From: Candidatus Moraniibacteriota bacterium
GTDB taxonomy: Bacteria > Patescibacteriota > Minisyncoccia > Moranbacterales > UBA2206
Assembly: GCA_049303905.1 (NCBI GenBank)
Contig: JBAQNP010000011.1
Coordinates: forward strand, 2,020 to 66,019
DNA: 64,000 nucleotides
Direction: 5' to 3'
A model generated the notes under the pieces. The model was not told the origin of the DNA. It did not search any database and saw only the letters and a program-made list of their open reading frames with translations. Position 1 is the first letter of the stretch. Every line of letters begins with the position of its first letter. Shown here piece after piece: positions 17,397 through 34,106 of the stretch. The position numbers and the translations under genes are program-made.

Positions 17397-17410
17397 TCTA
17401 GTAAATCTTA

Positions 17411-19368: not shown

Positions 19369-19550
19369 TTTCTTACTTGCCCCGCTATTCTGTTTACAGA
19401 ATTTTGCGGGGTTGCCTTATTTAATTTAATATTGCAAGGCGACCTCTCTCATATCGCTTGTTCCTTACTTTTTTTAGATAAGGCAAAACTTACTGAGAAG
19501 ACTTACAACTAAAAAGATTGTAGCTTAAAAAATAAATTACGTCAATCTCA

Positions 19551-20378: not shown

Positions 20379-20665
20379 TTTTTTTATTTACCCTGTTAAA
20401 TAAAATTTGTCCCTTATACTAAGAAACATCCTATTTTAATTATTGTTATTTATTTTTTTCACCTACTGTTTACCTAGATATATCCAAATCTAATTTTAAT
20501 TTTTTTTAAAAATTAAAATTATTTAACAGGGTGAATTCCTAATATAATTATAATCCAAAAACAAAAAACTTGCCAGAATTATTCGAAATTAATAAAACCT
20601 TGATTTATTTGAAATGTTTGATATAATCAAATTGTTAGATAAATAGTCCTTGAGGCTATTTAAAA

Positions 20666-20690
20666 TTGACAATTAAATATTCCGCGATAG
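20666..20690 (+). repeat. 25-bp direct repeat copy 1 (TTGACAATTAAATATTCCGCGATAG), contains the first 10 nt of tRNA-Asn
   Basis: 24/25 identical to 21019-21043. Followed by nested perfect hairpins (TCCCGAC/GTCGGGA; TTCTGTC/GACAGAA) and then GCTCAAT, which looks like a pseudo-tRNA 5' fragment. Confidence 0.6.
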
Positions 20691-20758
20691 TCCCGACGCA
20701 AGGTCGGGATCCCGACTTCTGTCTGGAGACAGAACGTCGGAGCTCAATCAAAAATCCA

Positions 20759-21022
20759 ATGCCACATGTTTACATATTAGAAAGCATAAACGATGGTCGG
20801 TATTATATAGGTAGTACCGCTGATTTAAAGTCTAGGATAAAACATCATATTGGTGGGCACACTCCAAGTACCAAAAGATTTGGTAAAATTAAATTAGTCT
20901 TTTCTCAAGAATATGCAACATTGAAAGAGGTTAGAATTATTGAGAAAAAACTAAAGAAATTAAAGAGAAAAGATTATTTGCAGAAAATAATCAAGGATGG
21001 TTTTATAAAAATAAAACCTTGA
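20759..21022 (+). CDS. small GIY-YIG nuclease (YhbQ/UPF0213-like)
   Basis: HVYILESINDGRYYIGSTADLKSRIKHHIGG is the GIY-YIG core. The track ORF begins at 20666 but the N-terminal 31 codons read through the repeat and hairpins, so the start is placed at MPHVYIL. Confidence 0.65.
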   Translation: MPHVYILESINDGRYYIGSTADLKSRIKHHIGGHTPSTKRFGKIKLVFSQEYATLKEVRIIEKKLKKLKRKDYLQKIIKDGFIKIKP

Positions 21023-21033
21023 CAACTAAATAT

Positions 21034-21105
21034 TCCGCGATAGCTCAATGGTAGAGCAGTTGACTGTTAATCAATTGGTTCCAGGTTCGAGTCCTGGTCG
21101 CGGAG
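21034..21105 (+). tRNA. tRNA-Asn (anticodon GTT)
   Basis: Acceptor TCCGCGA/TCGCGGA, D arm GCTCAATGGTAGAGC, anticodon loop CTGTTAA, T arm CCAGGTTCGAGTCCTGG, discriminator G. Confidence 0.85.
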
Positions 21106-22698
21106 CAGAACTGGAGAACTAGAGTATAAAAGCTCTAGTTTTTCTTTATCTTCGGGCAAATTCAGAGGTTCGAACTTTCTGAATATCGTATTTAGCTCGG
21201 AAGATATTTTTTCTAGGCCAGCGAACTTATTATCGGCTCTAATATTGAGTTTTTTCTCAGAAAGTGAGAGGTTCGAACCAATCGCCCTAAATATCTCTTT
21301 TCGTTTTTCTTCATCGCCATTTCTGAACTTTTCAAGTGAGTCCTTGGCAAGCTCCAGCAATTCTTTCGTTTCTTCCAGCTGGTCTATCCAATAGGTTGAA
21401 TTGTCCTCACAAGCGTCCAAACTGGCCTTCAGCCGTCCTTTTTCTCGTGTTAGCTCATCTTTCTTCGTTGCGAATTCACCCTCGCTTAATTCGCCATTTA
21501 TTCGCATATCTAGGAGTCTAGCTAACTTGTTATCATAAGCTTCGCATTCCTTTTTTCGGTTTTCTAATGTTTGTTTCCTTTCCTCAATTTCTTCCTTGTT
21601 TTCCTTTCTGAGTTTTTCAATCGCCCATTCTAGGAATGTGGGGTGGATCTTTATTCTTTTTAGGATTCCAATGATTTCTTCTTCAAACTTCCTTTCCTCG
21701 ACTACTTTTTGATCGCATTTTGGATCTAACCTGTGACTACAGTGGTAGTAGATGTAATAATGAGTTTTGCCATTCTTGCATTTCTTAACTTTATGTTCAG
21801 CTACTATCGATGCTTCACATATTCCGCATCTGATCGCTCCTGTATATTTGAAACTGTATTTTCGTGGTCTGGTCGTTCCTCGTCGACCGAGTATCATTTG
21901 AGTCTTTTCGAATTCTGCTTGTGTGATCATCGGTTCATGCTTGCCTTTATGCCATTGGCCACTATCGGATGGAAATTCATACCAGCCGTAGTAGAAAGGG
22001 TTATTCATCATGGCGTACCATGAGCTGATGGAAACTTTTTGGCCATGCTTATTTGTAAAGTTCCATTCAGCAGTTCCTTTCCTGTATGCTTCTGGCGGAG
22101 TGAGTTTTCCTGAAGCGACCATTTTCAACATCTTTTGAATCGTTTCAAATCTTTCAGGATCTTTGATGATTTCTTTTTCGCCTTTGAGCTTGATGGGATT
22201 GTGTCTATATCCGAGTGGCGATCCATTAGGATACCACCCTCGCTCCGCTTTGTTTCGCAGGCCTCGCTTTGTGTCAGTGCTTAGATCGCGAATGAATTGG
22301 TTAGCCATTCCTTGCTCTACAGCCATCACTAGAACATTATCTTCAGGGTAATAACTTCTCCCGAATGTAAAAATATGTTTTATCATCTTACCCTGTAGCA
22401 TCCAACTTATCGTACCGCTATCTACAGGATTTCTAGACAGACGATTAAGTTTCCAACAAAGTATTCCATCAGCTTCGCCCCGTTTTATTTTTTCGAACAT
22501 TTCGTTAAAAACTATCCTCCCAGGCTCTTTGGCTGATTTGGATTCATGCATAATTTCAGATACATTCAACCCGTTTTCTTTTGCGAGTCTTTGTAACTCT
22601 TCAATTTGCGAGTCAATCGATGCCATTTGTCGATCCTCGCTTTCAGATGATTTTCGAGCGTAAAGAATGTACTTAGTTGCTCTTGTTTCTTGGTTCAT
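21067..22698 (-). CDS. large serine recombinase (resolvase/invertase-type catalytic domain + recombinase domain + zinc ribbon + coiled coil)
   Basis: N-terminal YARKSSESEDRQMASIDSQ (catalytic Ser region), zinc ribbon CGICEAS...YYHCSHR, long coiled coil. The annotated 3' end reads through the tRNA-Asn 3' half (last ~13 codons), so the true stop may be earlier or it overlaps att. Confidence 0.85.
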   Translation of the reverse strand: MNQETRATKYILYARKSSESEDRQMASIDSQIEELQRLAKENGLNVSEIMHESKSAKEPGRIVFNEMFEKIKRGEADGILCWKLNRLSRNPVDSGTISWMLQGKMIKHIFTFGRSYYPEDNVLVMAVEQGMANQFIRDLSTDTKRGLRNKAERGWYPNGSPLGYRHNPIKLKGEKEIIKDPERFETIQKMLKMVASGKLTPPEAYRKGTAEWNFTNKHGQKVSISSWYAMMNNPFYYGWYEFPSDSGQWHKGKHEPMITQAEFEKTQMILGRRGTTRPRKYSFKYTGAIRCGICEASIVAEHKVKKCKNGKTHYYIYYHCSHRLDPKCDQKVVEERKFEEEIIGILKRIKIHPTFLEWAIEKLRKENKEEIEERKQTLENRKKECEAYDNKLARLLDMRINGELSEGEFATKKDELTREKGRLKASLDACEDNSTYWIDQLEETKELLELAKDSLEKFRNGDEEKRKEIFRAIGSNLSLSEKKLNIRADNKFAGLEKISSELNTIFRKFEPLNLPEDKEKLELLYSSSPVLLRDQDSNLEPID

Positions 22699-22916
22699 TT
22701 TTTTAATATTAATTGATTAGTTTTCTTAACAACACAATACTCCAAAGTGATATTAAAGCTAGTGGGTAAAAACCTGCGAAAATCCGACAAAGTTCGGGCT
22801 CAAAATAGGGTAAAGCTCTTTGCCAAAATCCCGCTTTTCTCTTTTATTAAGCCATAATATGCGATTTGAACTTTACCCTTTTTTCTGAAAAAACTTTGTC
22901 GTCTTTTCTAAAAGAA

Positions 22917-23010
22917 AGCGGACTCATGTAAGGGCTTTTTCTTTTTTAGTAAACCGACTCACGTAAGTCGGTTTTCTTTTGAGAATACTGACTCATGTAG
23001 GTAAGTTTTC
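22917..23010. repeat. three tandem ~34/35-bp repeats with core GACTCAYGTAAG (imperfect palindrome around ACGT)
   Basis: Copies at 22921, 22956 and 22990, each followed by GGnTTTTCTTTT. Confidence 0.6.
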
Positions 23011-23029
23011 TTCAATCTCTATATTGCAA

Positions 23030-23246
23030 AAAACGTTCAGAAAATTCAGAAAATGTGTCCGCAAAACCCGCAAAACTACATTCTCAAAACGTTCGGAAAA
23101 CTCGGAAAACTAAAGTACGAAAAACGCTCCAAAAACTCCAAAAACCTACCTTTAAAAACGTTCAGAAAATTCAGGGGATTAAATTCCTGAAACGTTCAGA
23201 AAACTCAGAAAACCATATCCTTTTCTGTGTCAGAAAAGTCAGGGAA
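23030..23246. repeat. six degenerate iteron-like repeats AAAACGTTCAGAAAAYTCAGAAAA (each itself a TTCAGAAAA dimer)
   Basis: Copies begin near 23030, 23087, 23116, 23154, 23190 and 23225. The spurious 97-aa plus-strand ORF at 23055..23348 is just a translation of these repeats. Confidence 0.6.
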
Positions 23247-23371
23247 TTATTTTTTAAAAAATCGCCGTTTTTTATTTTTTTACTTAACTTCATTGATTGC
23301 ATAGATACTTTATATTTACCTTATAGGGAACATATATTCTTTATATGACGTATATGTATATATAATAGTTA

Positions 23372-23710
23372 CTATGTTTGACCATTAATGTTTCTGGAAA
23401 ACTCCTCGCTTTGATAACATTCAATTATTTTTTCTTCTAATTTTTTCCATAGCACTTTATTCTCCATGTAAACAATTTCAACAAATTTACCTTTGTGTGG
23501 CGTGGCTGGAGGAGAAACGTAAAGCCCTCTGGATGAATACCAAATTCTATAGCCCTTTATAACTAAACAGCCAAAGAAAGTAACATTTACAATAGCTCTG
23601 ACGGAATCCTTTCTCGTTTCCATCTCCTTGATCAGGTTAATTTTGACACGAATATTTTCTATGTCACTATGATTCAATATTCTTTTCTCATTGGGGGTTT
23701 CTATCTTCAT
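23372..23710 (-). CDS. SpoVG-like protein
   Basis: VRAIVNVTFFGCLVIKGYRIWYSSRGLYVSPPATPHKGKFVEIVYMENKVLWKKLEEKII parallels SpoVG ([32 protein letters not shown]...FRDIAHPI). Recalled alignment, moderate confidence. Confidence 0.5.
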   Translation of the reverse strand: MKIETPNEKRILNHSDIENIRVKINLIKEMETRKDSVRAIVNVTFFGCLVIKGYRIWYSSRGLYVSPPATPHKGKFVEIVYMENKVLWKKLEEKIIECYQSEEFSRNINGQT

Positions 23711-23814
23711 TTTTTTACTAATTTTAATAATAATGCTAATTATGTATAAGAATTCATTTTAGATGCTTAGCTCTCCATTTCCAGCTTTGCTCATCCTCGC
23801 ATGCAAAATGTAAT

Positions 23815-24096
23815 TTATGTTTCCGAATAGTATAAGTCATGTAAGATTTCTATTTTTTTACTACCATCATAATCTTCTTTGGAAACGTTTTTATTGAAAT
23901 GATAGTTGATTGATTTTATGGAAATTTTTCGACTACTCTGCTTTACTTCCATCACGATCATTCTGAATAGACAAATATCGGAAACCAGTTGATAGTTCCT
24001 TAAACTCCGAAGATACTTAAAAATTCTTCCCAACCCATAGTTCTTATCAATCAGTCTCCTAGCAATTTTGATTTGATCATTTGCATTTTTGCTCAT
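23815..24096 (-). CDS. small hypothetical protein
   Basis: 93-aa ORF in a tightly packed minus-strand operon. Confidence 0.4.
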   Translation of the reverse strand: MSKNANDQIKIARRLIDKNYGLGRIFKYLRSLRNYQLVSDICLFRMIVMEVKQSSRKISIKSINYHFNKNVSKEDYDGSKKIEILHDLYYSET

Positions 24097-24100
24097 ATTT

Positions 24101-24238
24101 TTTTAATTAGATTTATAAACAGCAGTCAGTAAATCCAGCAACATTTGAGCATTTTCAACAATCTCGTTGTCGCTTATTTCAACGCCAAATTCTTCTTCGT
24201 GCATTTGCTTTAGTTGTTGGATTTCTTCTTGCGAAAAC
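24101..24238 (-). CDS. small hypothetical protein (45 aa, MFSQEEIQQLKQMHEEEFGVEISDNEIVENAQMLLDLLTAVYKSN)
   Basis: Hand-translated; below the track length cutoff. Fills the gap between the two neighbouring genes with 3-4 nt spacing. Confidence 0.3.
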
Positions 24239-24241
24239 ATT

Positions 24242-24460
24242 TTAGTTATAGATTCTACCTTTCAAATCCTTTTGAATGAAAAATAACTTTTTTGGTTCGA
24301 CCTTTATTTTTCCATTGTGAAAATCATCCAATATCATATTGGTTTTTTCGTTTGGGATAATAACAAAGACACATCTTCTTGGATCGCTTTTGTCTATTTC
24401 TGCAATTTCATGATCAAAGTAAAGCAGTACTGAACACGTTAATAGATCTGTTATTTTCAT
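24242..24460 (-). CDS. small hypothetical protein
   Basis: 72-aa ORF. Confidence 0.4.
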   Translation of the reverse strand: MKITDLLTCSVLLYFDHEIAEIDKSDPRRCVFVIIPNEKTNMILDDFHNGKIKVEPKKLFFIQKDLKGRIYN

Positions 24461-24546
24461 CTTAATCTAAATAAAAAAATTACGACTTTATATGTCGTAA
24501 TCATAGAGCGTAACTATTTAATCCTGCACAGTATAAATCTGGTGGA

Positions 24547-25653
24547 TTATAGGTTCATTAGCTTTTTGAATCTGGTTATTTCTCTTGATGCAATATTTGC
24601 AGGGACTTTCTTAAGCTTAAGGTTTTCCATTACTTTGTTTGCCTCTTTGTTGGTCAATTTTTCCCCAGTAATCAAGAAGAAATATATTGCCTCGCTCAAT
24701 ATTGTTTTTGGATCTATCCTTGAAATTCCCATTTTAGACTTGTAGGATGGAAATTTCTTTATGACACCAGCACCGCTTAATTCTTTGATAAGGTTTCTTA
24801 TATCGGTTATGTCAGTTGCACCATAAATATCAATGCTGATGTGTGGCTCAAAATTCTTCAGTTTTTCCTTGCTTAACTGAATGCATCGATTTTCCGTTTG
24901 TATTATTGAAGCCCTTGATGATCTTCGGCTGGAAGTCGCAAAATTATCATCCCACTCTATTTTATTGAACAAAATAAATTTTCTTAGATTGGATGAATAA
25001 CTCGAAGGGAAACCCAATTCCATGACAAAAAAATTGTAAATTTCCTCTTTGAGTTTCGGGTATTTATTATCTAAAAATATATCAATTTCATCAATCAATT
25101 TTTGCTTGGTTTTGCCACTTTGATTTTCCGTGCTTTTGTCAGCTATTTCCAAAATCAGATCATAATATGGATCGGATTCATTTTCCAATACTTCTACCAA
25201 ATAAACTGCATTTTCTCTAAAATTACTATATACTTCCGCTCTGACAGCACTAGGTTTTATTCCATATTTTTTTCTCAGGTTGCTTAACCATTGATTGAAT
25301 TTTGGAATAAATCGCAATATGGTAATCAGCGATATTTCTTTTGGATGTTTTAAACCTTTTTTAATATAACCAAAATCTGTAGCCAAAATTGATAAAACTT
25401 CTCGCTTAGCTAAGGATTCTTTTTCAGATAATCCCATTTCAATCCCTGTTTTTTTGGATGGTTTATTTTTCTCCTTAATTAGATTATTTAAACCGAGCAA
25501 ATCATTTGGAATAAAATATTCTTCTTTGATAAAACCAGCATCTTCTAGAAATTTGCTTGATACCTGGATAGTTCTCTTCGAGAAAAGAGGACTTTTATTT
25601 GCTTCTGTACAAAAATCAACTAAATTCATGATGTTAATCTTAATTTCTTCCAT
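24547..25653 (-). CDS. hypothetical protein (start placed at MEEIKIN; track ORF extends to 25845)
   Basis: The first 64 codons of the track ORF (MSGRPDGYHNQKTPRCSIMCVEPPAKGRDRAKPKG...) run through a GC-rich hairpin cluster that is atypical for this genome's coding sequence. Confidence 0.45.
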   Translation of the reverse strand: MEEIKINIMNLVDFCTEANKSPLFSKRTIQVSSKFLEDAGFIKEEYFIPNDLLGLNNLIKEKNKPSKKTGIEMGLSEKESLAKREVLSILATDFGYIKKGLKHPKEISLITILRFIPKFNQWLSNLRKKYGIKPSAVRAEVYSNFRENAVYLVEVLENESDPYYDLILEIADKSTENQSGKTKQKLIDEIDIFLDNKYPKLKEEIYNFFVMELGFPSSYSSNLRKFILFNKIEWDDNFATSSRRSSRASIIQTENRCIQLSKEKLKNFEPHISIDIYGATDITDIRNLIKELSGAGVIKKFPSYKSKMGISRIDPKTILSEAIYFFLITGEKLTNKEANKVMENLKLKKVPANIASREITRFKKLMNL

Positions 25654-25740
25654 TTTACCACTAAACCCGAAATGGTTGTATTTTAAGCAATTTGATGGTA
25701 TTTTATATTTGGTACCATAATCAATAAATACTAAGGTGAA

Positions 25741-25880
25741 ACCCTTGGGTTTTGCTCTATCACGCCCTTTAGCGGGCGGCTCGACGCACATGATAGAGCA
25801 CCTTGGTGTTTTTTGATTGTGGTACCCGTCGGGTCGTCCACTCAAGCGGAACCACTCGACGACTAATTATTAGTCGTTTT
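25741..25880. other. GC-rich structured element (nested hairpins) ending in a terminator-like CGACTAA-TTA-TTAGTCG-TTTTT
   Basis: Stems GCTCTATCA/TGATAGAGC (25754-25799) enclosing CGCCC/GGGCG; GTCGTC/GACGAC (25833-25863); final hairpin 25860-25881. Could be an sRNA or ribo-regulator on the plus strand, or a 5' leader of the minus-strand gene. Confidence 0.3.
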
Positions 25881-25884
25881 TATT

Positions 25885-27168
25885 ATGAAAATTTCTAGAA
25901 TTTTAGGGGAAAACTTTTTTCGGAAAGATTTGAATCTTAAAAATAAATGGTTGCATAGACTTATTTCTATCTCATTTGTTTTATTATTTTTTGTTTCTGT
26001 TATTTCCGTATTTGTAGACTATTTTGATGGTAATGGTTTTACCCAATGGACACAGACAAACACTCTTAAAGAGAGAATAAATTCTGATATGAATGCTACT
26101 GGCAATCTTGTTAAACAAAACGAGAAATTAGAAGAAATTGGTGCTCCTGCACAAACTCTAAATCTTAATGACTTGCCCTATGGTGATTATGTTTTAAATA
26201 ATGTATATTGTTCCACTGAAATTCAAAATCATGTAGGGGAAATAAAAAACGAACGTAAAATTGACCACCTTCTAGTAAGAGATTTGTATGATAAAAATGA
26301 TGTTTCAATTGAAGATTTTAATAAATACATAAAGGAAAATAATATAGATTGTATAGCTGTGGATGCTTATACGACTTATGGAAATAACAGTCAGGAAACT
26401 GGTAAATTTACTTTTTTAGAACCCAATAAAAAATTTCAGAATGGTTGGGCGTTTTATAAAAAATCAATCCCCAAAACCGTTTTATATCTTTTAGGATATT
26501 CACTTTGGACAGTGACATCTTTATTACTTATTTTCATTGTAATAGCCGTTATCTATTATAAAATTTTGCTTTATATAATATTCGGCAAAGCCACCAATGA
26601 AGCATCAAGGGAGGGAATCGAAAGAAGCGATGCAGTAAAATTGAGTCGATACGCAAAGCCCATAGTCATTATCTCAATCGTAATCATTTTACTTTTAGGA
26701 GTTTCTTTTTATTGGTTTGGAATTAGGCCGTCAAATATTCGACAGTGGTGTTCTGACGTTGAGGGAAGACAGGCTACTAATAGTGAATACACGAATTGTT
26801 TAAGGAAAAATGGGTTAAGAGAGGACAATTTACAATCTATTAATGATGAGCAATTAAAAAATTTACAACAAAGCATCGACGAGCAGTCGGAAAAAATAGA
26901 AAATGTTAACACAAAAAAGAACACCTCGTCTATCGATGCTCAGGCAATAATAAAGTCATCCATAGAAAAAACTAATCGTGAAGAGCAGGCAAAATGCCAG
27001 CAGGAATTAAGTGAATATAACTCCTGTTTAGCTGAGTATAATTCTAAGATGACTGAATATAATTCATGCCTAACGGAAGAAGCGAATCCGAATTCCTGGA
27101 ATTATGGCAAGACATCACTTTGTTTCAAGCCATCTAATTATTGCTTTAAGCCAGTTTGTGCTTATTAG
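25885..27168 (+). CDS. membrane protein with coiled-coil and Cys-rich C-terminus, hypothetical
   Basis: 427 aa; N-terminal TM helix, two internal TM helices, C-terminal CxxEYNSC repeats. Confidence 0.5.
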   Translation: MKISRILGENFFRKDLNLKNKWLHRLISISFVLLFFVSVISVFVDYFDGNGFTQWTQTNTLKERINSDMNATGNLVKQNEKLEEIGAPAQTLNLNDLPYGDYVLNNVYCSTEIQNHVGEIKNERKIDHLLVRDLYDKNDVSIEDFNKYIKENNIDCIAVDAYTTYGNNSQETGKFTFLEPNKKFQNGWAFYKKSIPKTVLYLLGYSLWTVTSLLLIFIVIAVIYYKILLYIIFGKATNEASREGIERSDAVKLSRYAKPIVIISIVIILLLGVSFYWFGIRPSNIRQWCSDVEGRQATNSEYTNCLRKNGLREDNLQSINDEQLKNLQQSIDEQSEKIENVNTKKNTSSIDAQAIIKSSIEKTNREEQAKCQQELSEYNSCLAEYNSKMTEYNSCLTEEANPNSWNYGKTSLCFKPSNYCFKPVCAY

Positions 27169-27177
27169 TAAAAAAGT

Positions 27178-29430
27178 CTATAGTTTGATTTTTGTTTTTA
27201 CTTTTTGGTCTATGATGTTGTATATGGGATATTTTTCTCTGATAATTTGGTGTAAGTCTATCCTTTTTGTTGTATCTGGCGTTATATCCTCAATAGATAT
27301 TACCAGTGCATAATCTTGAGAATAATCAATTGTATCAGCCTTTCCTCTTGTAGTTAAGGTTAGCCATATTTCCCAATCACCATTTTTATAATGCGAAAAA
27401 GTTTTTTCAAAAGTCTTTAGATTTTGCCATTTTGTTCTATTGTCAATCTTTTCCGAGGGGAGTCCGGCACTTCTATCCGTACCATTAGAGTTTTTATAAT
27501 GAAGATTGATGTCTATATCTGCTAATGTATAATCTATCTGGCCACTTTCACTTATGAGTGGAGTATAGGCTAAAGTTCCCCTAATCTTAACTTTTTTATT
27601 TTTTCCAACCAACTCATCAGGAATAATAAATTTTATTTTATGTTTATACTCTTTTGCTTCTTGATCATTTTCTTTTTTTGCCTCAATGGCTCCCAGGTGT
27701 ATAAATGTCGCTGATGACTTATCGCAGTCTAAAGCTCTGCTGTAATCAGGGATTCCAAAACCAACTGCTCTTCTACAATCATTCTCTTTTATTTTTGAAT
27801 TATTAGGCAGATTGTAACTAGCAGAATGAACAACTAAGGCCTTTACTAAATCAATCGAGTTTCTCCCAGTGTTCAACAGATAAGCATAAATTTGAGCGGC
27901 AATACTACTTACTAATGGAGCCGCAAAACTTGTTCCGATATTTTCATAAATTTTTTTAGGATCAATTGATAAGCTCCTAACTCCAACCCCTGCATAGTTT
28001 CCGTATTTATCGATATTCCCTCCAAAATGTGCTAAATCTGGCTTTTTTGAATCAGGCAGACCGGTTCTTGTAAAAGGAGACGGCTCATTATTCAGAGATA
28101 ATGCTCTTGAAGACGAACTATCAGCAATGGAGCCAACGCTTAAACCATTTATGATGTCGGCAGGAGAGGTAATAACTGAATTGTTGCAGAATAAACAATC
28201 TGGATATGTATCAGTCAGAAAAGTTTTTTGATTGCCTGCCGTTACAATTAAACAAACTTTGTGTTTATATGCTATTGCATCAAGCTCGCGAGTGAAAAAT
28301 GATTTTGTGTTATTTAGTATTGTCGTATCCGAGTCATTATTTAATGATAGATTAAAAACTTTTATATCTTTGTATTTTGGGTTTTTTATTGTGTCCAAGA
28401 GAGCGTTTATTATTTCTCGATCATTAGCACCCCTGCTTTTTCTCATCACTTTTATATCTAGAATTTTCAAGGCTGGTATCAGTCGGTTATTTTCTCTTAT
28501 TTGGTTTTCAATGTCATTTCCAAAAATTGCTCGTCCTGCAACGAATGTGCCATGCGAATGATTTTCGTCTTGAGAATCCTTTATAAAATCACAAGTATCT
28601 AGAATTAAATCCTTAATTAAGGGGTGTCTAGATATGCCAGTATCTATGACACCAATTTTTGCATCAAGTAATGGTTTTTCTATAATAACCGAATTGTATT
28701 CATATTCAATAGGTAGCTCTTGCGGGGTAAAAAAATCAATAGATTTTTCCACTCTAACAATTGGATTTCTTGGATCTGGTTCAGAAATTTCATCAATAAA
28801 ATTTGCGGCGAAAGAACCATATAATATTTTTGAACCAGCTTGCGAAGTAAAATACTCAACTTCAGAGCCAGTTTTCTTTTTCAGATTTTTTGCTACTTGT
28901 TTTCCATCTTCTTCGGAAACACCATCTGCAAGTATCAAATAGCTCTTGATTTTTTTGCCTTTTTGCGGAACAAATGATAACTTCGCACGCTTATTAATAA
29001 GTCCAATCTTGGTAATCGCAGACAAATATGCACTTCCGTTTTTATTATTAATCAAATCGAATTTACTTACAGAGTCCCTAAAGGATTTAAGATTTTCAGC
29101 AGTTGAGGATGCTAGAAAATTTTGTTTTCCTATTTGCGAATAAACATCTATATGGTTTTGTTCTAGTAGCTTACGTGGTTGTGCTGACTTTGCTAGTGCC
29201 TCATCATGAAATTCGATTTCATAAAATAATCTGTTTCCAGATAAAATTTGCCCTACTTTCTTTGTTTCCGCAAAACCTATAAGGTTGTCAACTTCTCGAA
29301 CCCTATCTCTTTTGTGTTTTTCAAATTCCGAATCATCTCCTCTGTAAGGCGGTGGATTTCCGCCTCCAGATTTTTGCTCTCTGCGATTATTTTCGGCTGG
29401 TATTTCAAATAAAGGGTTTTTTATTTTCAT
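27178..29430 (-). CDS. S8 family subtilisin-like serine peptidase with ~220-aa N-terminal extension
   Basis: Catalytic triad contexts VIDTGI (Asp), HGTFVAG (His), GTSFAAP (Ser). Sits 14 nt downstream of the AAA ATPase. Confidence 0.8.
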   Translation of the reverse strand: MKIKNPLFEIPAENNRREQKSGGGNPPPYRGDDSEFEKHKRDRVREVDNLIGFAETKKVGQILSGNRLFYEIEFHDEALAKSAQPRKLLEQNHIDVYSQIGKQNFLASSTAENLKSFRDSVSKFDLINNKNGSAYLSAITKIGLINKRAKLSFVPQKGKKIKSYLILADGVSEEDGKQVAKNLKKKTGSEVEYFTSQAGSKILYGSFAANFIDEISEPDPRNPIVRVEKSIDFFTPQELPIEYEYNSVIIEKPLLDAKIGVIDTGISRHPLIKDLILDTCDFIKDSQDENHSHGTFVAGRAIFGNDIENQIRENNRLIPALKILDIKVMRKSRGANDREIINALLDTIKNPKYKDIKVFNLSLNNDSDTTILNNTKSFFTRELDAIAYKHKVCLIVTAGNQKTFLTDTYPDCLFCNNSVITSPADIINGLSVGSIADSSSSRALSLNNEPSPFTRTGLPDSKKPDLAHFGGNIDKYGNYAGVGVRSLSIDPKKIYENIGTSFAAPLVSSIAAQIYAYLLNTGRNSIDLVKALVVHSASYNLPNNSKIKENDCRRAVGFGIPDYSRALDCDKSSATFIHLGAIEAKKENDQEAKEYKHKIKFIIPDELVGKNKKVKIRGTLAYTPLISESGQIDYTLADIDINLHYKNSNGTDRSAGLPSEKIDNRTKWQNLKTFEKTFSHYKNGDWEIWLTLTTRGKADTIDYSQDYALVISIEDITPDTTKRIDLHQIIREKYPIYNIIDQKVKTKIKL

Positions 29431-29444
29431 AATTTTACTTTTAA

Positions 29445-30557
29445 TTATTTGCTTATATTATGAATTGTTGAAGATGAGATACCTGTCATTTTTTCAAGAT
29501 TATCGAAGGTGTATCTTGATTTATCGGATTTTCTTAAATGTCTTATTGCTTTTATAAAATTTTTTCTAGGAGCACCTTTTAACTTTTCATTTTTTCCAGC
29601 AGTTGCAATTAAGAAATTTTCTATAAGAATATCTCTTAAACCAGCAGAATCTTTATCAAGGAGTGATTTCCTGAGACTCTTGTTAATAATTTGCTTTATT
29701 ATTGCACCTGATAATCCCTCTGAGAGTTCGGCTAGAAGATTGATATCAATATCTTCATTTGCCCCTATAATCATCTGAATTAAAGATTTACGAAGTGAGG
29801 CAGGGAGGATATCTATTTTAAGGGAATAATCAAATCTTCTCCAGACCGCTGAATCAAGTAAATGATCATGATTTGTTGCGGCAATCAATATGGTATCAGG
29901 ATTAAGCTCGTCGATATTTTGAAGTAAAACAGTCACTACTCGCTTAAGCTCACCTAGTTCTTGCGAATCATCTCGATGCTTTGCGATTGCATCAAATTCA
30001 TCCAATAATAAAACGCACTCGTTTGCGGAAGCTTCTCTGAATATTTCTTTTAAGTTTTTTCCTGTTTCTCCAAGATATGAAGATATAAGCGAATCTAAAT
30101 AAACATGAAGAATCGGAATACCTAATTCTCCGGCGACAACATAGGCGAAGAGAGTTTTTCCTGTTCCAGGAGGACCATGCAAAATTAACCTACTATCATT
30201 ACTTAATCCATGCTTTCTTAAGAGATCCTTTTTCTTGTAGTTGTGTATTATTTCTTGAAGGGTTTCCTTATTTGTATCTGAAAGTATTATATTTCCAATG
30301 CCAATTTTTGATTTTCGTATTTCAAAAAGTTTAGAATTATTATCCTGCGTATTTGAAAATTGAAATGAGCTTAGTGATGAGGGAGAGAAATGTGCCTCCG
30401 ATGCTGATGCATAAGCTTCTCGTAGTTTTTTTGCCAAATTATATTGCTTCCTTTTTTCTGCGGTCGCTATGAGCTTCTTGATGATGATATCAATTTCTTG
30501 CGGATCATTTTTTTTGAATGAATTTATTAAATTTATGATAATTTCTGTAGAAATCAT
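29445..30557 (-). CDS. AAA+ ATPase
   Basis: Walker A GPPGTGKT, Walker B VLLLDEFD; 370 aa; first gene of a two-gene operon with the S8 peptidase. Confidence 0.8.
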   Translation of the reverse strand: MISTEIIINLINSFKKNDPQEIDIIIKKLIATAEKRKQYNLAKKLREAYASASEAHFSPSSLSSFQFSNTQDNNSKLFEIRKSKIGIGNIILSDTNKETLQEIIHNYKKKDLLRKHGLSNDSRLILHGPPGTGKTLFAYVVAGELGIPILHVYLDSLISSYLGETGKNLKEIFREASANECVLLLDEFDAIAKHRDDSQELGELKRVVTVLLQNIDELNPDTILIAATNHDHLLDSAVWRRFDYSLKIDILPASLRKSLIQMIIGANEDIDINLLAELSEGLSGAIIKQIINKSLRKSLLDKDSAGLRDILIENFLIATAGKNEKLKGAPRKNFIKAIRHLRKSDKSRYTFDNLEKMTGISSSTIHNISK

Positions 30558-30780
30558 AGCAATTTTTATTTTATTTTAAGATTATGTTTTAATTATATCC
30601 AAAAATAGAAATTAAGTAAAGTTTTGGATAAATGCAATTTAAAACAGTTTAGATACGCCAGTTGTTATGCTGTTATAGTCATCCATAATTATTATTGACT
30701 GGCACTCAGTCGAAAGAATGGTCATTGCTTTTTATGTAAATGTGGAATATAAATGATTATAGACGCAAGCTAAAATTGAG

Positions 30781-32073
30781 TTGTTAAATATGGGAAAATT
30801 ATCTGAAAAATTAGTAGTTTATCTTGATCAAAATTTCATTAGTGAAATTGCTAAATCAAAAATAAACAGTAAAGTCAGAAAGGAATTTCAAGAACTTTTT
30901 GATTTGCTTCATAGAGGTTTTCTAGAAGAAAAATTAGTCGTACCATCTTCTTGGTTTCATGAAATTGAAACATGTTTGATTCCTGAATTCAAAGAAAGAA
31001 TCAAGGAATGCCAAGCATACATGGGTCAGATAGGCTTGGAAAATAAGGAGAACATATACACGTTTCAAATCGGAAGAGCCGCTAACGATTTCTTAGGAAA
31101 TAAAAATAAGCCACTGGATTACACAATTGCTTTCCATGATGATCCAGATCAGTTCTTGAAGTTTTACAATATAAGTTTTGATATGCATCTGGAGCGTTAT
31201 CACAATAAGGAAGAAAGAGAGGAGCTCGCATCAAAAATCGATGCAAACAGAGAGGAAATAAAGAAAGTAAGCTATAAAATTCAGTTAGGAAGAGAAATAG
31301 AAGCTTACTCTGCTGGTTTTCTGGCAAGCAACGGTTGGCGAGTTAACTATTTATTTAACGGAGATGTTGATAAAATTAAAGATTTTGCTGGTTCTAAAAA
31401 TTTTAAAGACATACCCCTGGTTGAAATTGGATCAAAGCTTTGGGCAAAAATCCTAACAGCTCATGGTAATAGAAAGATTCAAAGTGGCGACGCTACTGAT
31501 GTTGAGGTGATATCTTCCTATTTGCCCTATGTTGATGTGATGGCCATAGATGGTTTCATGGCCAATAATGTAAAAGAATTAAAAATGGATGAAAAATACA
31601 AAACCATTGTTTTTACTGCAAAGGGTGATGGTTTGAGAAAATTTATTGAGTTTATTAAAGATTATCTGGACAATAATCCACCAGTAAATGTTCCTGACGC
31701 CACTATATTTGTACTTTCGGATGATAAAATAAAAGATGTTTCTTTTGAATTTTTTAGAAAACTAGGGTCTTTATGCAGTAGATATTATACTGATGTCTAC
31801 GCTTTTGATGATGGGAATATGCCTAAATATCAACACAGAGATTCAAAAATCATAATGCCATTCAGTGGTTTGCAGGAAGTGCATCATATTGATATTAAAC
31901 CCAACACTTCAACAGAGGAAACCGTTGCTATCTGTAAAGAAAAATGTAGGTCGGAAAAATTCGTAATAATTGATTCATACCGAGATTTACCCGATAATTT
32001 TATTAAGACATTTATTGAATATTGTGAAAATGATAAAGATATGATTTTGGGGTATGGTATATACACAAAGTAG
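30781..32073 (+). CDS. hypothetical protein (430 aa)
   Basis: Long ORF divergent from the ATPase gene; no motif recognised. Confidence 0.5.
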   Translation: MLNMGKLSEKLVVYLDQNFISEIAKSKINSKVRKEFQELFDLLHRGFLEEKLVVPSSWFHEIETCLIPEFKERIKECQAYMGQIGLENKENIYTFQIGRAANDFLGNKNKPLDYTIAFHDDPDQFLKFYNISFDMHLERYHNKEEREELASKIDANREEIKKVSYKIQLGREIEAYSAGFLASNGWRVNYLFNGDVDKIKDFAGSKNFKDIPLVEIGSKLWAKILTAHGNRKIQSGDATDVEVISSYLPYVDVMAIDGFMANNVKELKMDEKYKTIVFTAKGDGLRKFIEFIKDYLDNNPPVNVPDATIFVLSDDKIKDVSFEFFRKLGSLCSRYYTDVYAFDDGNMPKYQHRDSKIIMPFSGLQEVHHIDIKPNTSTEETVAICKEKCRSEKFVIIDSYRDLPDNFIKTFIEYCENDKDMILGYGIYTK

Positions 32074-32245
32074 TTTTGCCTGAGTGATGAAATTGGTAGA
32101 CGAGGTGCCAACTTCTTCTTTCCAGTTTTTCTTAATTATTATTGAAGAATGGAATAAAGTTTCCAAGCTTTCCTTAGATAAAGAGATAGAAACTATAACT
32201 AAAAATGGGTAGAGCGAATGAAGGAAAAGAATAACAAACAAAATT

Positions 32246-32827
32246 ATGGTAAGAAAAATGAGCTATGGTATTAAGGTCTCCTATCCGGGATTCAGTGCGA
32301 CAGACTTAGAAAAAGAACGATCACAGAAGAAGTCGTCTGTTGAAGCATTGCCTAATTTGCTTTCGTCTTTGGCCTTGCCGTATTTATTTGGTGCAAAAAA
32401 GCAGATTAACAGGTATAAAACTTCCACATCGTTACTCTCTACACGACCCATATTATCTACTATGGAATGTTTGCATGAAGCATCTACATTATTTGAGGAT
32501 TTAAACACTGTGGCTATGTATGCTAATAAATGTAACCAACACCATGAGTACCATCGGCTATTTAGAGATATTTGTAATCATATTAGGCATACTGTTCGAG
32601 AAGATTTTGATATAGAGGATAAGAGCGTAAAAAATGAAGCTGCAAAAAGATTAGGACTTGATTCTAGGCTTCAAATTAATATAGGTTTTGATATGGATAG
32701 CATTAAAGTTGGAGAAAAAGTGATTAAGCTGGTTGATATAAAAGCGTATTTAGATTGGGCGGAAGGAGTTTTCACTGAGATCATAAATAGAGCCAAAAGG
32801 GACGGTGCTTTTCGAGAGATGGAATGA
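32246..32827 (+). CDS. hypothetical protein (193 aa)
   Basis: ORF with no recognised motif. Confidence 0.4.
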   Translation: MVRKMSYGIKVSYPGFSATDLEKERSQKKSSVEALPNLLSSLALPYLFGAKKQINRYKTSTSLLSTRPILSTMECLHEASTLFEDLNTVAMYANKCNQHHEYHRLFRDICNHIRHTVREDFDIEDKSVKNEAAKRLGLDSRLQINIGFDMDSIKVGEKVIKLVDIKAYLDWAEGVFTEIINRAKRDGAFREME

Positions 32828-32907
32828 ATTGGAAGCTGGCATTGAGATATATGTGGTATTTATTATTAAGCATAGGTTCGCATCATTTTTAGCTCGCGGA
32901 GCCTTTA

Positions 32908-32944
32908 AAAAATTACGTAATTAATTACGTAATTTTATTTTGAA
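32908..32944. terminator. bidirectional terminator: A-run, 24-bp perfect palindrome AATTACGTAATTAATTACGTAATT, T-run
   Basis: The identical 24-mer recurs at 58468-58491 in the same A/T-run context. Confidence 0.55.
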
Positions 32945-33035
32945 AAAAAGGTGCTTGACCTTTTTTTAATTGTTGCATTAATTGTATCAAAATGTTACAA
33001 TTAGAGTAAATAAATGTAATAATTAGAATAAATTC

Positions 33036-34091
33036 ATGGAAAAATTAACTAATCGTCAAAACTCAATACTAGAATTCATAAGAAATCAGGGGCAAGCCAG
33101 CACTAGGGAAATTAAGAAATACCAAGAACTAAAAACGGGAACTCTAAATAGAATAACAATCATAAGAGATCTTGATGTTTTAATAACGAAAAAACTAATT
33201 AAAAAAACAGGACAAGGAAGAAGCGTTTCTTATAGCATGATAATTGAAAATCCCCTACTGTCTTTTTATGATATTGAAAAATATTTTAAACAATCAATAA
33301 AAGAAAGAAATTCTCGAAAAAACTTCAACTTCGATATCTTTAAAAATTTTGATAATTCCATATTTTCAAAAGAAGAATTATCTAATCTTGATAAACTGAA
33401 TGATACCTACCGAAAAAGCGTAGCAAGGCTTTCCCCAACTATTTTAAAAAAGGAGTTTGAAAGACTAACTATCGAATTAAGTTGGAAATCATCTCAAATA
33501 GAAGGAAACACATATTCGTTAATAGAAACGGAAATTTTAATAACAGAAAATCAAGAGGCTTCCGGTCACACAAAATCAGAAACTCAAATGATCTTAAATC
33601 ATAAAAAAGCTCTGGATTATATTATTAATAATCCTAAAATTTTCAAAGAATTAACTCTTTCCAAAATCGAAGACTTGCACAAGCTACTCATCTTCGATCT
33701 TGGAGTTGAAAAAAATATTAGAAAAACATCAGTCGGAATAACTGGAACTAATTACAAACCGCTAGACAACCAATTTCAAATAAAAGAAGCCTTGCATGAA
33801 ATGCTTTCGATTATTAATGCTAAAAATCTACATCCCCTGCTAAAAGCACTCTCTGCAATCGCCTTAATTTCCTATACCCAGCCCTTTGAAGATGGAAACA
33901 AAAGAACTGCTAGAATTTTAGGCAATGCTATTTTATTAGCCCAGGAATATTGCCCACTATCCTACAGAGATGTTGATAAAAATGACTACAAGAAAGCGAT
34001 TTTGCTTTTTTATGAACAAAATAGTCTTTATTTACTAAAAGAAATTTTCATCCAACAATTTGAATTTGCAGTGAAGAATTATTTTGAATAA
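33036..34091 (+). CDS. Fic family protein with N-terminal HTH-like region
   Basis: Fic motif QPFEDGNKRTARILGNAILL. Confidence 0.75.
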   Translation: MEKLTNRQNSILEFIRNQGQASTREIKKYQELKTGTLNRITIIRDLDVLITKKLIKKTGQGRSVSYSMIIENPLLSFYDIEKYFKQSIKERNSRKNFNFDIFKNFDNSIFSKEELSNLDKLNDTYRKSVARLSPTILKKEFERLTIELSWKSSQIEGNTYSLIETEILITENQEASGHTKSETQMILNHKKALDYIINNPKIFKELTLSKIEDLHKLLIFDLGVEKNIRKTSVGITGTNYKPLDNQFQIKEALHEMLSIINAKNLHPLLKALSAIALISYTQPFEDGNKRTARILGNAILLAQEYCPLSYRDVDKNDYKKAILLFYEQNSLYLLKEIFIQQFEFAVKNYFE

Positions 34092-34106
34092 TACTAAAAT
34101 GGAAAC

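What the first reader, a model, noticed from the sequence alone, without database searches (positions are those of the whole stretch)
21034..32902. Putative ~12-kb integrative element at tRNA-Asn: serine recombinase, iterons, phage-like small genes, defence cargo
A large serine recombinase gene abuts tRNA-Asn(GTT); its annotated 3' end even overlaps the tRNA 3' half. Everything from 25845 down to 21067 is on one strand: a 432-aa unknown, three tiny ORFs, a SpoVG-like gene, two iteron arrays, then the recombinase. Beyond that lie a membrane protein, the ATPase/S8 pair and two unknown genes. A weak partial echo of the tRNA 3' end (AGGTTCG ... TCGCGGAGC, 32873-32902) sits just before the 24-bp palindromic terminator and may mark the distal attachment site. 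The cargo composition (no structural phage genes, iterons, small regulators) is more plasmid- or satellite-like than prophage-like.
Basis: partly seen in the sequence, partly recalled or inferred. Interest (0 to 1): 0.65.

Follow-up and report, generated by a model that had tools for sequence, protein, structure and literature searches.

The report
Serine-integrase defence island at tRNA-Asn
An 11.8-kb mobile island, moved by a large serine recombinase that targets the last bases of the tRNA-Asn gene, sits in this candidate-phyla-radiation (Moraniibacteriota) genome; it carries an IetAS anti-phage system and an undescribed ~175-nt structured RNA, and it belongs to a large, little-studied family of such islands.

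Summary
Window 21107-32902 is an integrated element. A sibling copy (L012) matches from the tRNA to exactly 32902 and has unrelated flanks. Close relatives (L014/L015) have an identical tRNA-Asn followed 68 bp later by rsgA, which is an empty site.

The "echo" at 32874-32902 is not decayed tRNA. It is the element's own attP arm, conserved in four elements. Its GGTTCG motif lies 5 bp further from the crossover than in the tRNA, which is the known attP/attB signature of large serine integrases. The recombinase ORF runs across the junction, and the element supplies a new terminator for the tRNA.

Cargo is IetA/IetS plus unknown genes. Siblings carry restriction-modification, ABC-3C-like, AIPR or helicase cargo instead. 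Fic (33036-34091) lies outside the element.

Between core and cargo sits a conserved promoter, structured RNA and terminator block (25676-25884). It has strong covariation, no Rfam match, and occurs in all eight family members tested.

Sibling cores encode replication-initiator and small-terminase-like proteins, so the family looks satellite- or plasmid-like. The window's own core is functionally opaque.

It is a new variant of a known kind. tRNA targeting by serine integrases has rarely been reported.

The parts
21034..21106 (+). tRNA-Asn(GTT), the integration target. attB left arm = GGTTCG-N8-TCGCGGAGC (21084-21106). The crossover is inferred to lie inside GGAGC (21102-21106).
   Evidence: ARAGORN; Rfam tRNA 74 bits. 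A 100% identical tRNA sits at the empty site in L014. Junctions in 7 sibling loci all read ...CGGAGC|AGAACTGG.
21107..21145 (+). Element left end (P' arm of attL). Contains an intrinsic-terminator-like hairpin plus T-run (21113-21144) that replaces the tRNA's own terminator. It is embedded antisense in the recombinase 3' coding region.
   Evidence: Terminator scan. The hairpin is kept with different stem sequences in distant relatives L007, L008, L009, L020. Homology with the empty-site locus L014 stops at 21106.
21067..22698 (-). Large serine recombinase (integrase), 543 aa, with the YARKSS catalytic motif. The ORF crosses attL, so the last 11 residues and the stop are encoded by tRNA antisense.
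   Evidence: Pfam PF00239 4.3e-20, PF07508, PF13408; PHROG integrase 1.6e-64; PDB A118 and TP901-1 integrases; 2460 homologues at E<1e-20, those named being Patescibacteria; C-terminal tails computed.
22913..23014 (.). Repeat array A: 3 copies of ~34 nt with core GACTCAYGTA.
   Evidence: 100% conserved in sibling L012.
23021..23371 (.). Repeat array B (seven doublets of 9-mers TYCNNAAAA with phased A-tracts, ~23029-23250), followed by an AT-rich stretch (23250-23371). Candidate origin or operator region.
   Evidence: The intergenic region is 95% identical to L012, against 86% for the surrounding core. Its function is inferred, not shown.
23372..23710 (-). SpoVG-like protein, 112 aa.
   Evidence: Pfam PF04026 5.9e-11; conserved in L012, L024, L025.
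23815..24460 (-). Three small ORFs: 93 aa (23815-24096), 45 aa (24103-24240) and DUF5659, 72 aa (24242-24460). Candidate regulators or directionality factor.
   Evidence: The DUF5659 and 45-aa ORFs are shared with L002/L022, and all three with L012. No PHROG or PADLOC hit.
24547..25656 (-). 369-aa protein of unknown function, first gene of the core operon.
   Evidence: Only 5 homologues in 5.8 billion clusters; no Pfam, PHROG, PADLOC or PDB match; AlphaFold pLDDT 42.
25676..25884 (+). Conserved block 'R1': promoter (TTGTAT 25676-25681, 17-nt spacer, TATTTT 25699-25704), a ~175-nt structured RNA (about 25711-25884), and a terminator hairpin 25858-25878 plus U-run. It sits back-to-back with the core-operon promoter and ends 1 nt before the first cargo ORF.
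   Evidence: Covariance model R1 hits at 120-222 bits in 8 loci, always at the core/cargo boundary. 93.6% of cells are paired, 28 of 50 pairs have double changes, 0 of 500 shuffles reach this, and slid controls give 31-41%. Fold z = -9.6. No Rfam family. The strand is assigned from promoter and terminator; G-U counts mildly favour the other strand.
25885..27168 (+). Cargo: 427-aa membrane protein.
   Evidence: The C-terminal part is shared with L012. The first cargo-side gene is a small membrane or secreted protein in most siblings.
27178..29430 (-). Cargo: IetS (S8 serine protease, 750 aa).
   Evidence: PADLOC IetS 2.6e-96 over the full length; Pfam Peptidase_S8 7.7e-30.
29445..30557 (-). Cargo: IetA (AAA+ ATPase, 370 aa).
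   Evidence: PADLOC IetA 4.1e-101 over the full length; Pfam AAA 3.8e-32.
30781..32827 (+). Cargo: two unknown genes (430 aa at 30781-32073; 193 aa at 32246-32827). Present in L012, absent from L025.
32874..32902 (+). attR: element right end (P arm), AGGTTCG-N13-TCGCGGAGC. The element ends at 32902.
   Evidence: Homology with L012, L024 and L025 ends at 32902. The P arm is conserved in four elements and followed by unrelated host DNA. The 5-bp outward shift of GGTTCG relative to the tRNA matches the serine-integrase rule (PMC3783163).
32903..32940 (+). Host side of attR (B' arm): native palindromic tRNA terminator (32911-32934).
   Evidence: The identical 24-bp palindrome lies 8 nt after tRNA-Arg(TCT) at 58469-58492.

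Best explanation
Window 21107-32902 is an integrated mobile island. It entered by site-specific recombination catalysed by its own large serine recombinase.

How integration works (inferred from sequence):
- The enzyme pairs an element site (attP) with the 3' end of the tRNA-Asn gene (attB).
- attP lies across the 3' end of the recombinase gene.
- Exchange happens inside the last bases of the tRNA, GGAGC.
- The tRNA therefore stays intact. Its lost terminator is replaced by a hairpin plus T-run carried at the element's left end.

Layout of the element:
- A recombinase-proximal core operon holds small regulators, a SpoVG-like protein, an iteron-like and AT-rich region, and an orphan 369-aa protein.
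- A divergent promoter pair includes a conserved ~175-nt structured RNA.
- A swappable cargo module lies beyond. Here it holds the IetA/IetS anti-phage system, a membrane protein and two unknown genes.

Shown by comparison: the boundaries, empty sites, the same element in other genomic contexts, cargo exchange, the RNA structure, and the attP/attB motif geometry.

Inferred only: the exact crossover dinucleotide, excision to a circle, replication from the iteron region, and the route of cell-to-cell transfer. Transfer is probably phage-assisted or by natural transformation, since no conjugation genes are present.
For: Boundaries:
- blastn gives window 21032-25711 = L012 231-4908 (86%) and 26898-32902 = L012 6826-12825 (95%). 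Flanks are unrelated.
- L024 and L025 homology also ends at 32902.

Empty site:
- In L014/L015 the window matches at 17404-20389, 21031-21106 (100%) and 34095-35151, contiguous within about 400 bp.

Target specificity:
- In 10 of the 11 distinct loci where the sequence reaches past the recombinase gene (L010 is cut off inside it), the recombinase 3' end reads into a tRNA.
- The tRNA is Asn for relatives at 42-87% identity (window, L001, L002, L005, L007, L012, L013, L020). It is Gln for relatives at 34-42% (L008, L009).
- At least four different acceptor stems and different neighbouring genes show independent insertions.

att geometry:
- The tRNA arm is GGTTCG-N8-TCGCGGAGC. The element arm is GGTTCG-N13-CTCGYGGAGC in four elements.
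- This equals the 5-bp zinc-ribbon-motif shift described for A118-type integrases.
- A C/T difference between the P arm and the tRNA in L012/L025 places the crossover within GGAGC.

Enzyme.
Cargo: (IetAS). Siblings carry other cargo.
Native host terminator right of attR.
RNA block.
Against: - No excised circle or attP junction was found. The metagenome scan returned only integrated copies and viral-contig scans returned nothing.
- No recombination directionality factor, replicase, relaxase or packaging gene could be identified in the window's own copy.
- One sibling pair (L022/L023) shows the element end next to sequence in which no tRNA was detected. In L025 the contig ends about 30 nt beyond the junction, so nothing can be said there.
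- GC content is host-like and tetranucleotide deviation is small, so composition alone would not flag the region.
- Only about a dozen of more than 2400 family members were inspected.
Confidence: 0.85

Rival explanations
1. Phage satellite (PICI- or tycheposon-like). After excision the island replicates and is packaged by a helper phage of the Moraniibacteriota host. The defence cargo protects the host and the island.
For: - Sibling elements with 62-87% identical recombinases encode, between R1 and the recombinase, an O-like/DnaD-like replication initiator (phrog_9773, 8.8e-25) or a primase zinc ribbon plus AAA_25 helicase.
- They also encode a small-terminase-like protein (phrog_4102, 7e-21 to 2.9e-25), with no other virion genes.
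- The PICI-like tycheposons described in Prochlorococcus carry terS or MCP genes. All tycheposons encode site-specific integrases, a few of them large serine recombinases.
- Sizes of 8-12 kb fit satellites.
Against: - The window's own copy has no TerS-like, replication-initiator or primase hit.
- None of these elements appears in IMG/VR.
- The TerS-like HTH protein could equally be an excisionase or regulator.
- No helper phage is known.
Confidence: 0.3
2. Integrative plasmid-like element. After excision it replicates on its own from the iteron and AT-rich region (22913-23371), using the 369-aa orphan or the SpoVG-like protein as initiator. It spreads by natural transformation.
For: - Two iteron-like arrays with phased A-tracts sit next to an AT-rich stretch.
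- This intergenic region is more conserved (95%) than the neighbouring genes.
- There are no virion or conjugation genes.
Against: - No recognisable Rep protein was found. The 369-aa protein has no informative homologue or model.
- The repeats lie just upstream of the recombinase gene and could be operators controlling it.
- Siblings with other cores lack these repeats.
Confidence: 0.25
3. Immobile remnant. The block is an old, now fixed island and the recombinase is decaying or has been put to another use.
For: - L005 carries a recombinase ORF cut to 509 aa.
- L018/L019 show a ~500-bp remnant at the same site, so decay does occur in this family.
Against: - In the window the 543-aa ORF is intact with its catalytic motif, and both att arms are intact.
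- Copies at 76-95% nt identity lie in at least five different genomic contexts and samples.
- Close relatives have the empty site.
Confidence: 0.1
4. The 32874-32902 echo is the displaced, decayed 3' end of the original tRNA, as in tyrosine-integrase islands, rather than an element-borne site.
For: Same strand and order as a displaced tRNA fragment would have. L012 also has a true 20-nt copy of its tRNA 3' end about 160 nt further right.
Against: - The same arm, including the 13-nt spacer, is present in four elements whose host tRNAs and right flanks differ.
- It carries a C/T variant that does not match the resident tRNA in L012 and L025.
- It keeps the recombinase reading frame open, with three different synonymous Leu codons (CTA, TTG, CTC).
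- No tyrosine recombinase is present.
Confidence: 0.05

Closest known systems
Large serine integrases of temperate phages and integrative elements (A118, TP901-1, Bxb1, phiC31 type)
   Same: - Domain order: resolvase catalytic domain, recombinase domain, zinc ribbon.
- Short core of identity between the att sites.
- The distal binding motif lies 5 bp further out in the attP-derived arm than in attB.
- The int gene sits at the element edge.
   Different: - The target is the extreme 3' end of a tRNA gene. The 2020 survey in PMC7192596 said it knew of no earlier report of this for serine integrases and found it in only 14 of 297 cases.
- attP lies inside the recombinase ORF, so the C-terminal 10-11 residues differ between the integrated and excised states.
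- The element carries a replacement tRNA terminator.
Tycheposons of Prochlorococcus (Hackl et al., bioRxiv 10.1101/2020.12.28.424599)
   Same: Small modular islands in streamlined genomes that integrate at tRNA genes. They have an integration-plus-replication module and a swappable cargo module. Some are PICI-like with terS, and a minority use a large serine recombinase.
   Different: - Different phylum.
- Here the serine recombinase is the rule, not the exception.
- The cargo is anti-phage defence rather than nutrient acquisition.
- A conserved structured RNA marks the core/cargo junction.
- Homology of hallmark genes to tycheposons was not tested.
Phage-inducible chromosomal islands and P4-like satellites as defence-cargo hotspots
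   Same: About 10-kb size, integrase at one end, a replication module with iterons, variable defence cargo at a fixed position, and no virion genes apart from TerS-like genes in siblings.
   Different: Those elements use tyrosine integrases. No helper phage, repressor or packaging function is shown here, and the window copy lacks TerS and a recognisable replicase.
IetAS defence system (Gao et al. 2020, from my own knowledge; PADLOC models)
   Same: An adjacent AAA+ ATPase and S8 protease pair, with full-length HMM matches at 4e-101 and 3e-96.
   Different: None seen at the sequence level. Activity was not tested. Here it is carried as cargo of a mobile island in a Patescibacteria genome.

Membership tests
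Large serine recombinase (serine integrase) | N-terminal resolvase-type catalytic domain with a serine nucleophile | tested here: met
   PF00239 4.3e-20, residues 11-154. The motif Y13-A-R-K-S17-S is read from the translation. PDB hits to TP901-1 integrase and transposon recombinase catalytic domains.
Large serine recombinase (serine integrase) | C-terminal recombinase domain plus zinc-ribbon domain | tested here: met
   PF07508 2.5e-05 and PF13408 1.1e-05, both above the curated cut-offs. Residues 227-432 align to the A118 integrase C-terminal domain structures 4kis and 6dnw.
Large serine recombinase (serine integrase) | attP and attB half-sites share motifs, with the distal (zinc-ribbon) motif 5 bp closer to the centre in attB | tested here: met
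   GGTTCG-N8-TCGCGGAGC in the tRNA against GGTTCG-N13-CTCGYGGAGC in the element arm of four elements. The rule is from PMC3783163. Only the left arms were analysed.
Large serine recombinase (serine integrase) | Catalyses attP x attB recombination with a 2-bp staggered crossover; needs a directionality factor for excision | not testable with these tools
   The crossover is narrowed to GGAGC by sequence comparison only. No directionality factor was identified.
Integrative genetic element (genomic island) | Presence/absence polymorphism at a defined site in related genomes | tested here: met
   Empty site in L014/L015, remnant in L018/L019.
Integrative genetic element (genomic island) | The same element, with the same ends, occurs in different genomic contexts | tested here: met
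   L012, L013, L024, L025, L001, L002 and L005 have the same left end. Four have the same right arm. Flanks are unrelated.
Integrative genetic element (genomic island) | Excised circular form with an attP junction | tested here: inconclusive
   The scan for the element left end in metagenome contigs found only tRNA-joined copies. The L022/L023 junction lacks a detectable tRNA but is not a clear attP.
IetAS defence system | Adjacent IetA (AAA+ ATPase) and IetS (S8 protease) genes | tested here: met
   PADLOC PDLC02196 4.1e-101 and PDLC02197 2.6e-96, both near full length. The genes are 14 bp apart on the same strand.
Phage satellite (PICI-like) | Replication initiator or primase together with packaging-redirection genes (TerS etc.) and no virion genes | tested here: not met
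   The window's core proteins have no PHROG or Pfam hit to these functions. The feature is met only in siblings L001, L002, L005, L020.
Phage satellite (PICI-like) | Induction and packaging by a helper phage | not testable with these tools
   No helper known; no hits in IMG/VR.
Iteron-type plasmid origin | Directly repeated iterons next to an AT-rich region, together with a cognate Rep protein | tested here: inconclusive
   Repeats and an AT-rich stretch are present. No Rep was identified.
Any Rfam RNA family (for block R1) | Match to a curated covariance model | tested here: not met
   No hit at gathering score. Nothing credible at E<=1 over 16 kb or at E<=10 over 281 nt.

The most novel reading that the evidence does not exclude
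The window holds one member of a Patescibacteria-wide family of tRNA-3'-end-targeting serine-integrase islands. The family has more than 2400 recombinase homologues and works as an exchangeable platform for defence cargo. Its hallmark is a previously undescribed ~175-nt structured RNA (R1), transcribed from an invariant promoter towards the cargo. R1 may govern read-through into whatever cargo is installed, or it may control the element's maintenance. Because attP lies inside the recombinase ORF, the enzyme would also have different C-terminal tails in the integrated and excised states.
Probability: 0.4. Interest if true: 0.72.

Novelty: new variant of a known kind. Interest (0 to 1): 0.6.

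Why it matters
- Candidate-phyla-radiation bacteria have tiny genomes, are mostly uncultured, and have very few described mobile elements or genetic tools.
- A large clade of serine integrases with a short, conserved attB (the tRNA-Asn or tRNA-Gln 3' end) would be an obvious route to site-specific integration vectors for these organisms.
- The clade would also add tRNA-specific enzymes to the serine-integrase toolbox.
- The family shows how defence systems (IetAS, restriction-modification, ABC-3C-like, AIPR) move between streamlined episymbiont genomes.
- Serine integrases were thought to avoid tRNA genes. This clade is a counter-example with clear att-site logic.
- The R1 block is a well-supported new structured RNA tied to a mobile element. 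It offers a concrete object for studying how islands control their cargo.

Tried and rejected
- Exact-protein look-ups of the window's recombinase, Fic and DM13 genes found nothing. The source MAG surfaced only through homologue searches (P0121, P0241).
- IMG/VR scans with the R1 core, the element left end and the recombinase all gave nothing.
- A first search for the right arm in L001/L002 failed, presumably because those islands run beyond the 10-kb flank.
- Reading the conserved block as a 5' leader of the core operon was rejected. The operon promoter (for example TTGACT-17-TATAAT in L005) lies downstream of the block. The block's unpaired conserved tail is a promoter on the opposite strand, and the hairpin plus T-run works only on that strand. 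G-U counts slightly favour the other strand, so the strand call is not final.
- The AlphaFold model of the 369-aa protein was useless (pLDDT 42), so no fold search was run. PDB sequence searches of the 369-aa and 430-aa proteins were empty.
- No attR was found in L022.
- ARAGORN with introns allowed mis-assigns the anticodon in L001, L002 and L016. The exon sequences, and for L002/L016 their 93-100% identity to the window tRNA, show these are tRNA-Asn.
- A prophage reading was rejected: no structural or lysis genes were found by Pfam or PHROGs.

Full report
**Observation.**
- ARAGORN and Rfam place tRNA-Asn(GTT) at 21034-21106 (+).
- The 543-aa ORF at 21067-22698 (-) has the Resolvase, Recombinase and Zn_ribbon_recom domains.
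- It also has a PHROG integrase match of 1.6e-64 and PDB matches to the A118 and TP901-1 serine integrases.
- Its last 40 nt are antisense to the tRNA 3' half.
- Downstream on the same strand lie two repeat arrays, a SpoVG-like gene, three small ORFs (one of them DUF5659) and a long orphan ORF.
- The window comes from a low-GC Moraniibacteriota (Patescibacteria/CPR) MAG. Proteins 100% identical to two window genes (RsgA and the 369-aa orphan) are on an NCBI contig of 70,195 bp.

**Is the echo more than chance?**
- TCGCGGAGC occurs twice in 64 kb, against 0.09 expected.
- The composite AGGTTCG-N(5-20)-TCGCGGAGC occurs only at the tRNA and at 32874-32902, on the same strand, and in no shuffle.
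- In 2000 dinucleotide shuffles of the 15 kb downstream of the tRNA, the 9-mer appears in 23 and a looser composite in 2.

**Boundaries by comparison.**
- A scan of metagenome contigs for the element's left end returned L012 and L013.
- L012 is a sibling island. Window 21032-25711 matches L012 231-4908 (86%), and 26898-32902 matches 6826-12825 (95%).
- Homology stops exactly at 32902 and starts at the tRNA. The flanks are unrelated.
- Two further siblings found through the orphan protein (L024, L025) also lose homology at 32902.
- All four right ends read WGGTTCG-N13-CTCGYGGAGC. Unrelated host DNA follows, and it begins with a terminator hairpin.
- In the window that hairpin is a 24-bp palindrome. 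The same palindrome also follows tRNA-Arg(TCT) at 58469-58492, so it is a native tRNA terminator of this host.

**Empty sites.**
- RsgA homologues led to L014/L015 (RsgA 90% identical). The order there is aminotransferase ... RRM - DM13 - tRNA-Asn - RsgA.
- Their tRNA is 100% identical to the window's, and rsgA starts 80 nt after it; 68 bp of that spacer has no match in the window.
- Relative to them the window has gained 21107-34094, which is the island plus a 1.2-kb Fic cassette. It has also gained a 0.35-kb GIY-YIG cassette upstream of the tRNA.
- L018/L019 (83%) have a ~500-bp remnant ending in another ...CGGCGGAGC|A echo.

**Target specificity and mechanism.**
- The left junction always reads ...CGGAGC|AGAACTGGAGAACTAGAG... 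in window, L001, L002, L005, L012 and L013 (recombinases 85-87% identical where measured).
- The tRNA-Asn acceptor stems differ (GCGGAGC, GTCGGAGC, GCCGGAGC) and so do the neighbouring genes.
- L020 (62%) and L007 (42%) also abut tRNA-Asn. L008 and L009 (42% and 34%) abut tRNA-Gln.
- Ten of the eleven distinct loci where the sequence reaches past the recombinase gene therefore show it reading into a tRNA 3' end (L010 is cut off inside the gene).
- A C/T difference between the P arm and the resident tRNA in L012 and L025 confines the exchange to GGAGC.
- The tRNA arm is GGTTCG-N8-TCGCGGAGC and the element arm is GGTTCG-N13-TCGCGGAGC.
- Rutherford et al. (PMC3783163) showed that in serine-integrase sites the zinc-ribbon motif sits 5 bp closer to the centre in attB than in attP. 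The same 5-bp offset is seen here.
- The echo is therefore an attP-derived binding arm, not a decayed tRNA end.
- Because attP lies within the recombinase ORF, the protein ends ...PVLLRDQDSNLEPID when integrated. In the reconstructed circle it ends ...PVLLRELKMMRTYA.
- The sibling P arms keep this frame open with three synonymous Leu codons (CTA, TTG, CTC). This hints that the excised form is expressed.
- The element's first 40 nt form a hairpin plus T-run on the tRNA strand. Distant relatives keep the hairpin with different stem sequences. The island thus replaces the terminator it displaces.
- Mageeney et al. (PMC7192596) wrote that tRNA use by serine integrases had not been reported to their knowledge, and they saw it in only 14 of 297 cases.
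- Here it characterises a clade with 2460 homologues at E<1e-20, all of whose source-named members are Patescibacteria. Only a dozen of these were inspected.

**Architecture.**
- Comparison shows a mosaic. The recombinase and a ~230-bp block at 25650-25890 are shared by all inspected siblings. The genes between them and beyond them vary.
- Cargo beyond the block in the window and L012 is a membrane protein, IetS and IetA (PADLOC 2.6e-96 and 4.1e-101), and two unknown genes.
- L022 and L025 also carry IetAS.
- L005 carries a two-domain methyltransferase-like protein and a 609-aa protein that look like a restriction-modification pair (read from the translations, not scanned), plus an HTH protein and a 228-aa protein carrying an HExxH motif.
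- L002 carries HTH/M78, DUF2188 and a 1085-aa helicase. L001 carries AIPR and a 1259-aa protein. L024 carries DUF2326/MC6, which is ABC-3C-like.
- Sibling cores encode an O-like/DnaD-like initiator (8.8e-25), or a primase zinc ribbon plus AAA_25 helicase. They also encode a small-terminase-like protein next to the recombinase (2.9e-25).
- The window's core has no such hits. Its 369-aa protein has five homologues in the whole database and an uninformative model.
- Its repeat and AT-rich region is 95% identical to L012, more than the flanking genes. That suggests an origin or operator, but no initiator is identified.

**The conserved block (R1).**
- A covariance model built from six copies finds the block at 120-222 bits in window, L001, L002, L005, L012, L013, L020 and L022. 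It is always at the core/cargo boundary.
- On the eight-sequence alignment, 93.6% of cells pair, 28 of 50 pairs show compensatory double changes, and no shuffle in 500 reaches this. Slid controls pair at 31-41%.
- Rfam has no match.
- The unpaired conserved tail reads on the window + strand as TTGTAT-17-TATTTT. The hexamers are invariant and the spacers vary across the eight loci.
- The predicted start (~25711) is the first base of a 116-nt hairpin. A second hairpin and a terminator hairpin with a U-run follow, ending 1 nt before the first cargo ORF (fold z = -9.6).
- The core-operon promoter lies back-to-back with it.
- G-U counts slightly favour the opposite strand, so the strand assignment rests on the promoter and terminator logic.
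- Function is unknown. My best guess is a leader or small RNA that gates transcription into the swappable cargo. A trans-acting maintenance RNA is the alternative.

**What it is, and how sure.**
- Integrative island moved by a tRNA-targeting large serine recombinase: 0.85.
- How it transfers is open. The options are satellite-like (0.3), plasmid-like with transformation (0.25), or currently immobile (0.1).
- No excised form was seen.

**Novelty.**
- Islands at tRNA genes carrying defence cargo are ordinary. IetAS is known, and group I introns in Patescibacteria tRNA-Asn genes are published (PMC13011429).
- Several aspects seem not to be described in the literature I could search:
  - a large CPR clade of serine integrases aimed at tRNA 3' ends;
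  - attP inside the integrase ORF;
  - the element-borne tRNA terminator;
  - the R1 RNA.
- I rate it a new variant of a known kind, with interest 0.6.

Noticed in passing
window 20666-21043: A 25-bp direct repeat, TTGACAAYTAAATATTCCGCGATAG, occurs at 20666-20690 and 21019-21043. The second copy includes the first 10 nt of tRNA-Asn. The repeat brackets a 353-bp insert with two hairpins and an 88-aa GIY-YIG gene (20756-21022, Pfam 1.3e-15). Relatives L014, L016 and L018 lack the insert. It looks like a small GIY-YIG cassette inserted into the 5' end of the tRNA gene, with a duplication that keeps the tRNA intact.
   Followed up: partly
window 32903-34094: A Fic-domain gene (33036-34091; SoFic-like by PADLOC at 1e-16, with an N-terminal winged-helix repressor-like domain) lies between the native tRNA terminator and rsgA. 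It is absent from L014/L015 and L018. It is outside the island, since sibling homology ends at 32902, so it is a second, independent gain at the same hotspot.
   Followed up: partly
L001 11593-12199, L002 11593-12213, L007 11591-12023, L016 4504-5130: In these relatives the tRNA-Asn gene is split after CTGT|T of the anticodon loop by a 360-550-nt group I-type intron. In some it carries an HNH-like ORF (an 81-aa ORF lies inside the L002 intron; the 101-aa ORF in L017 has a faint HNH hit). Default ARAGORN misses these genes. The phenomenon is already published for Patescibacteria (PMC13011429). The island still integrates at the 3' end of such intron-bearing genes.
   Followed up: partly
L012 12826-13003: About 160 nt to the right of the island's attR in L012 there is an exact 20-nt copy of that host's tRNA-Asn 3' end (CGAATCCCTCTCGCGGAGCA). 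An inverted GCTCCGCGA lies just before it. This looks like the fossil of an earlier, different integration at the same tRNA.
   Followed up: no
L022 11560-11700 and L025 9990-10025: Two siblings have the element left end joined to ...GGGGGAGC|A. In L022 no tRNA is detected there, even with introns allowed; in L025 the contig ends about 30 nt beyond the junction, so it is uninformative. In L022 the upstream sequence contains CTGTTAA and a T-arm-like GTTCAATTC, so it may be a degenerate or unusually interrupted tRNA, or a secondary site.
   Followed up: partly
window 21165-21180, and the equivalent position in all relatives: A T-loop-like GAGGTTCGAAC motif lies about 60-70 nt inside the element from the junction, within the recombinase coding region (codons F-E-P). 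It is kept even in relatives at 34-42% identity (GGTTCTAAC, AGGTTCGAAG, GAGGTTCGAGC). Whether it is a protein constraint or a DNA site is unknown.
   Followed up: no
window 58788-63830 (-): A single 1680-aa ORF just after a cluster of four tRNA genes (57503-58461) accounts for the odd composition of the window's last 6 kb. There the tetranucleotide r is 0.75, GC is 0.40-0.44, and GC skew is strong.
   Followed up: no
window 23029-23250: In repeat array B each unit is an internal doublet of a 9-mer, and the variable trinucleotide is the same in both halves: TCAGAAAA/TCAGAAAA, CCGCAAAA/CCGCAAAA, TCGGAAAA/TCGGAAAA, CTCCAAAAA/CTCCAAAAA. This matched variation between neighbouring half-sites is unusual for iterons and is unexplained.
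   Followed up: no
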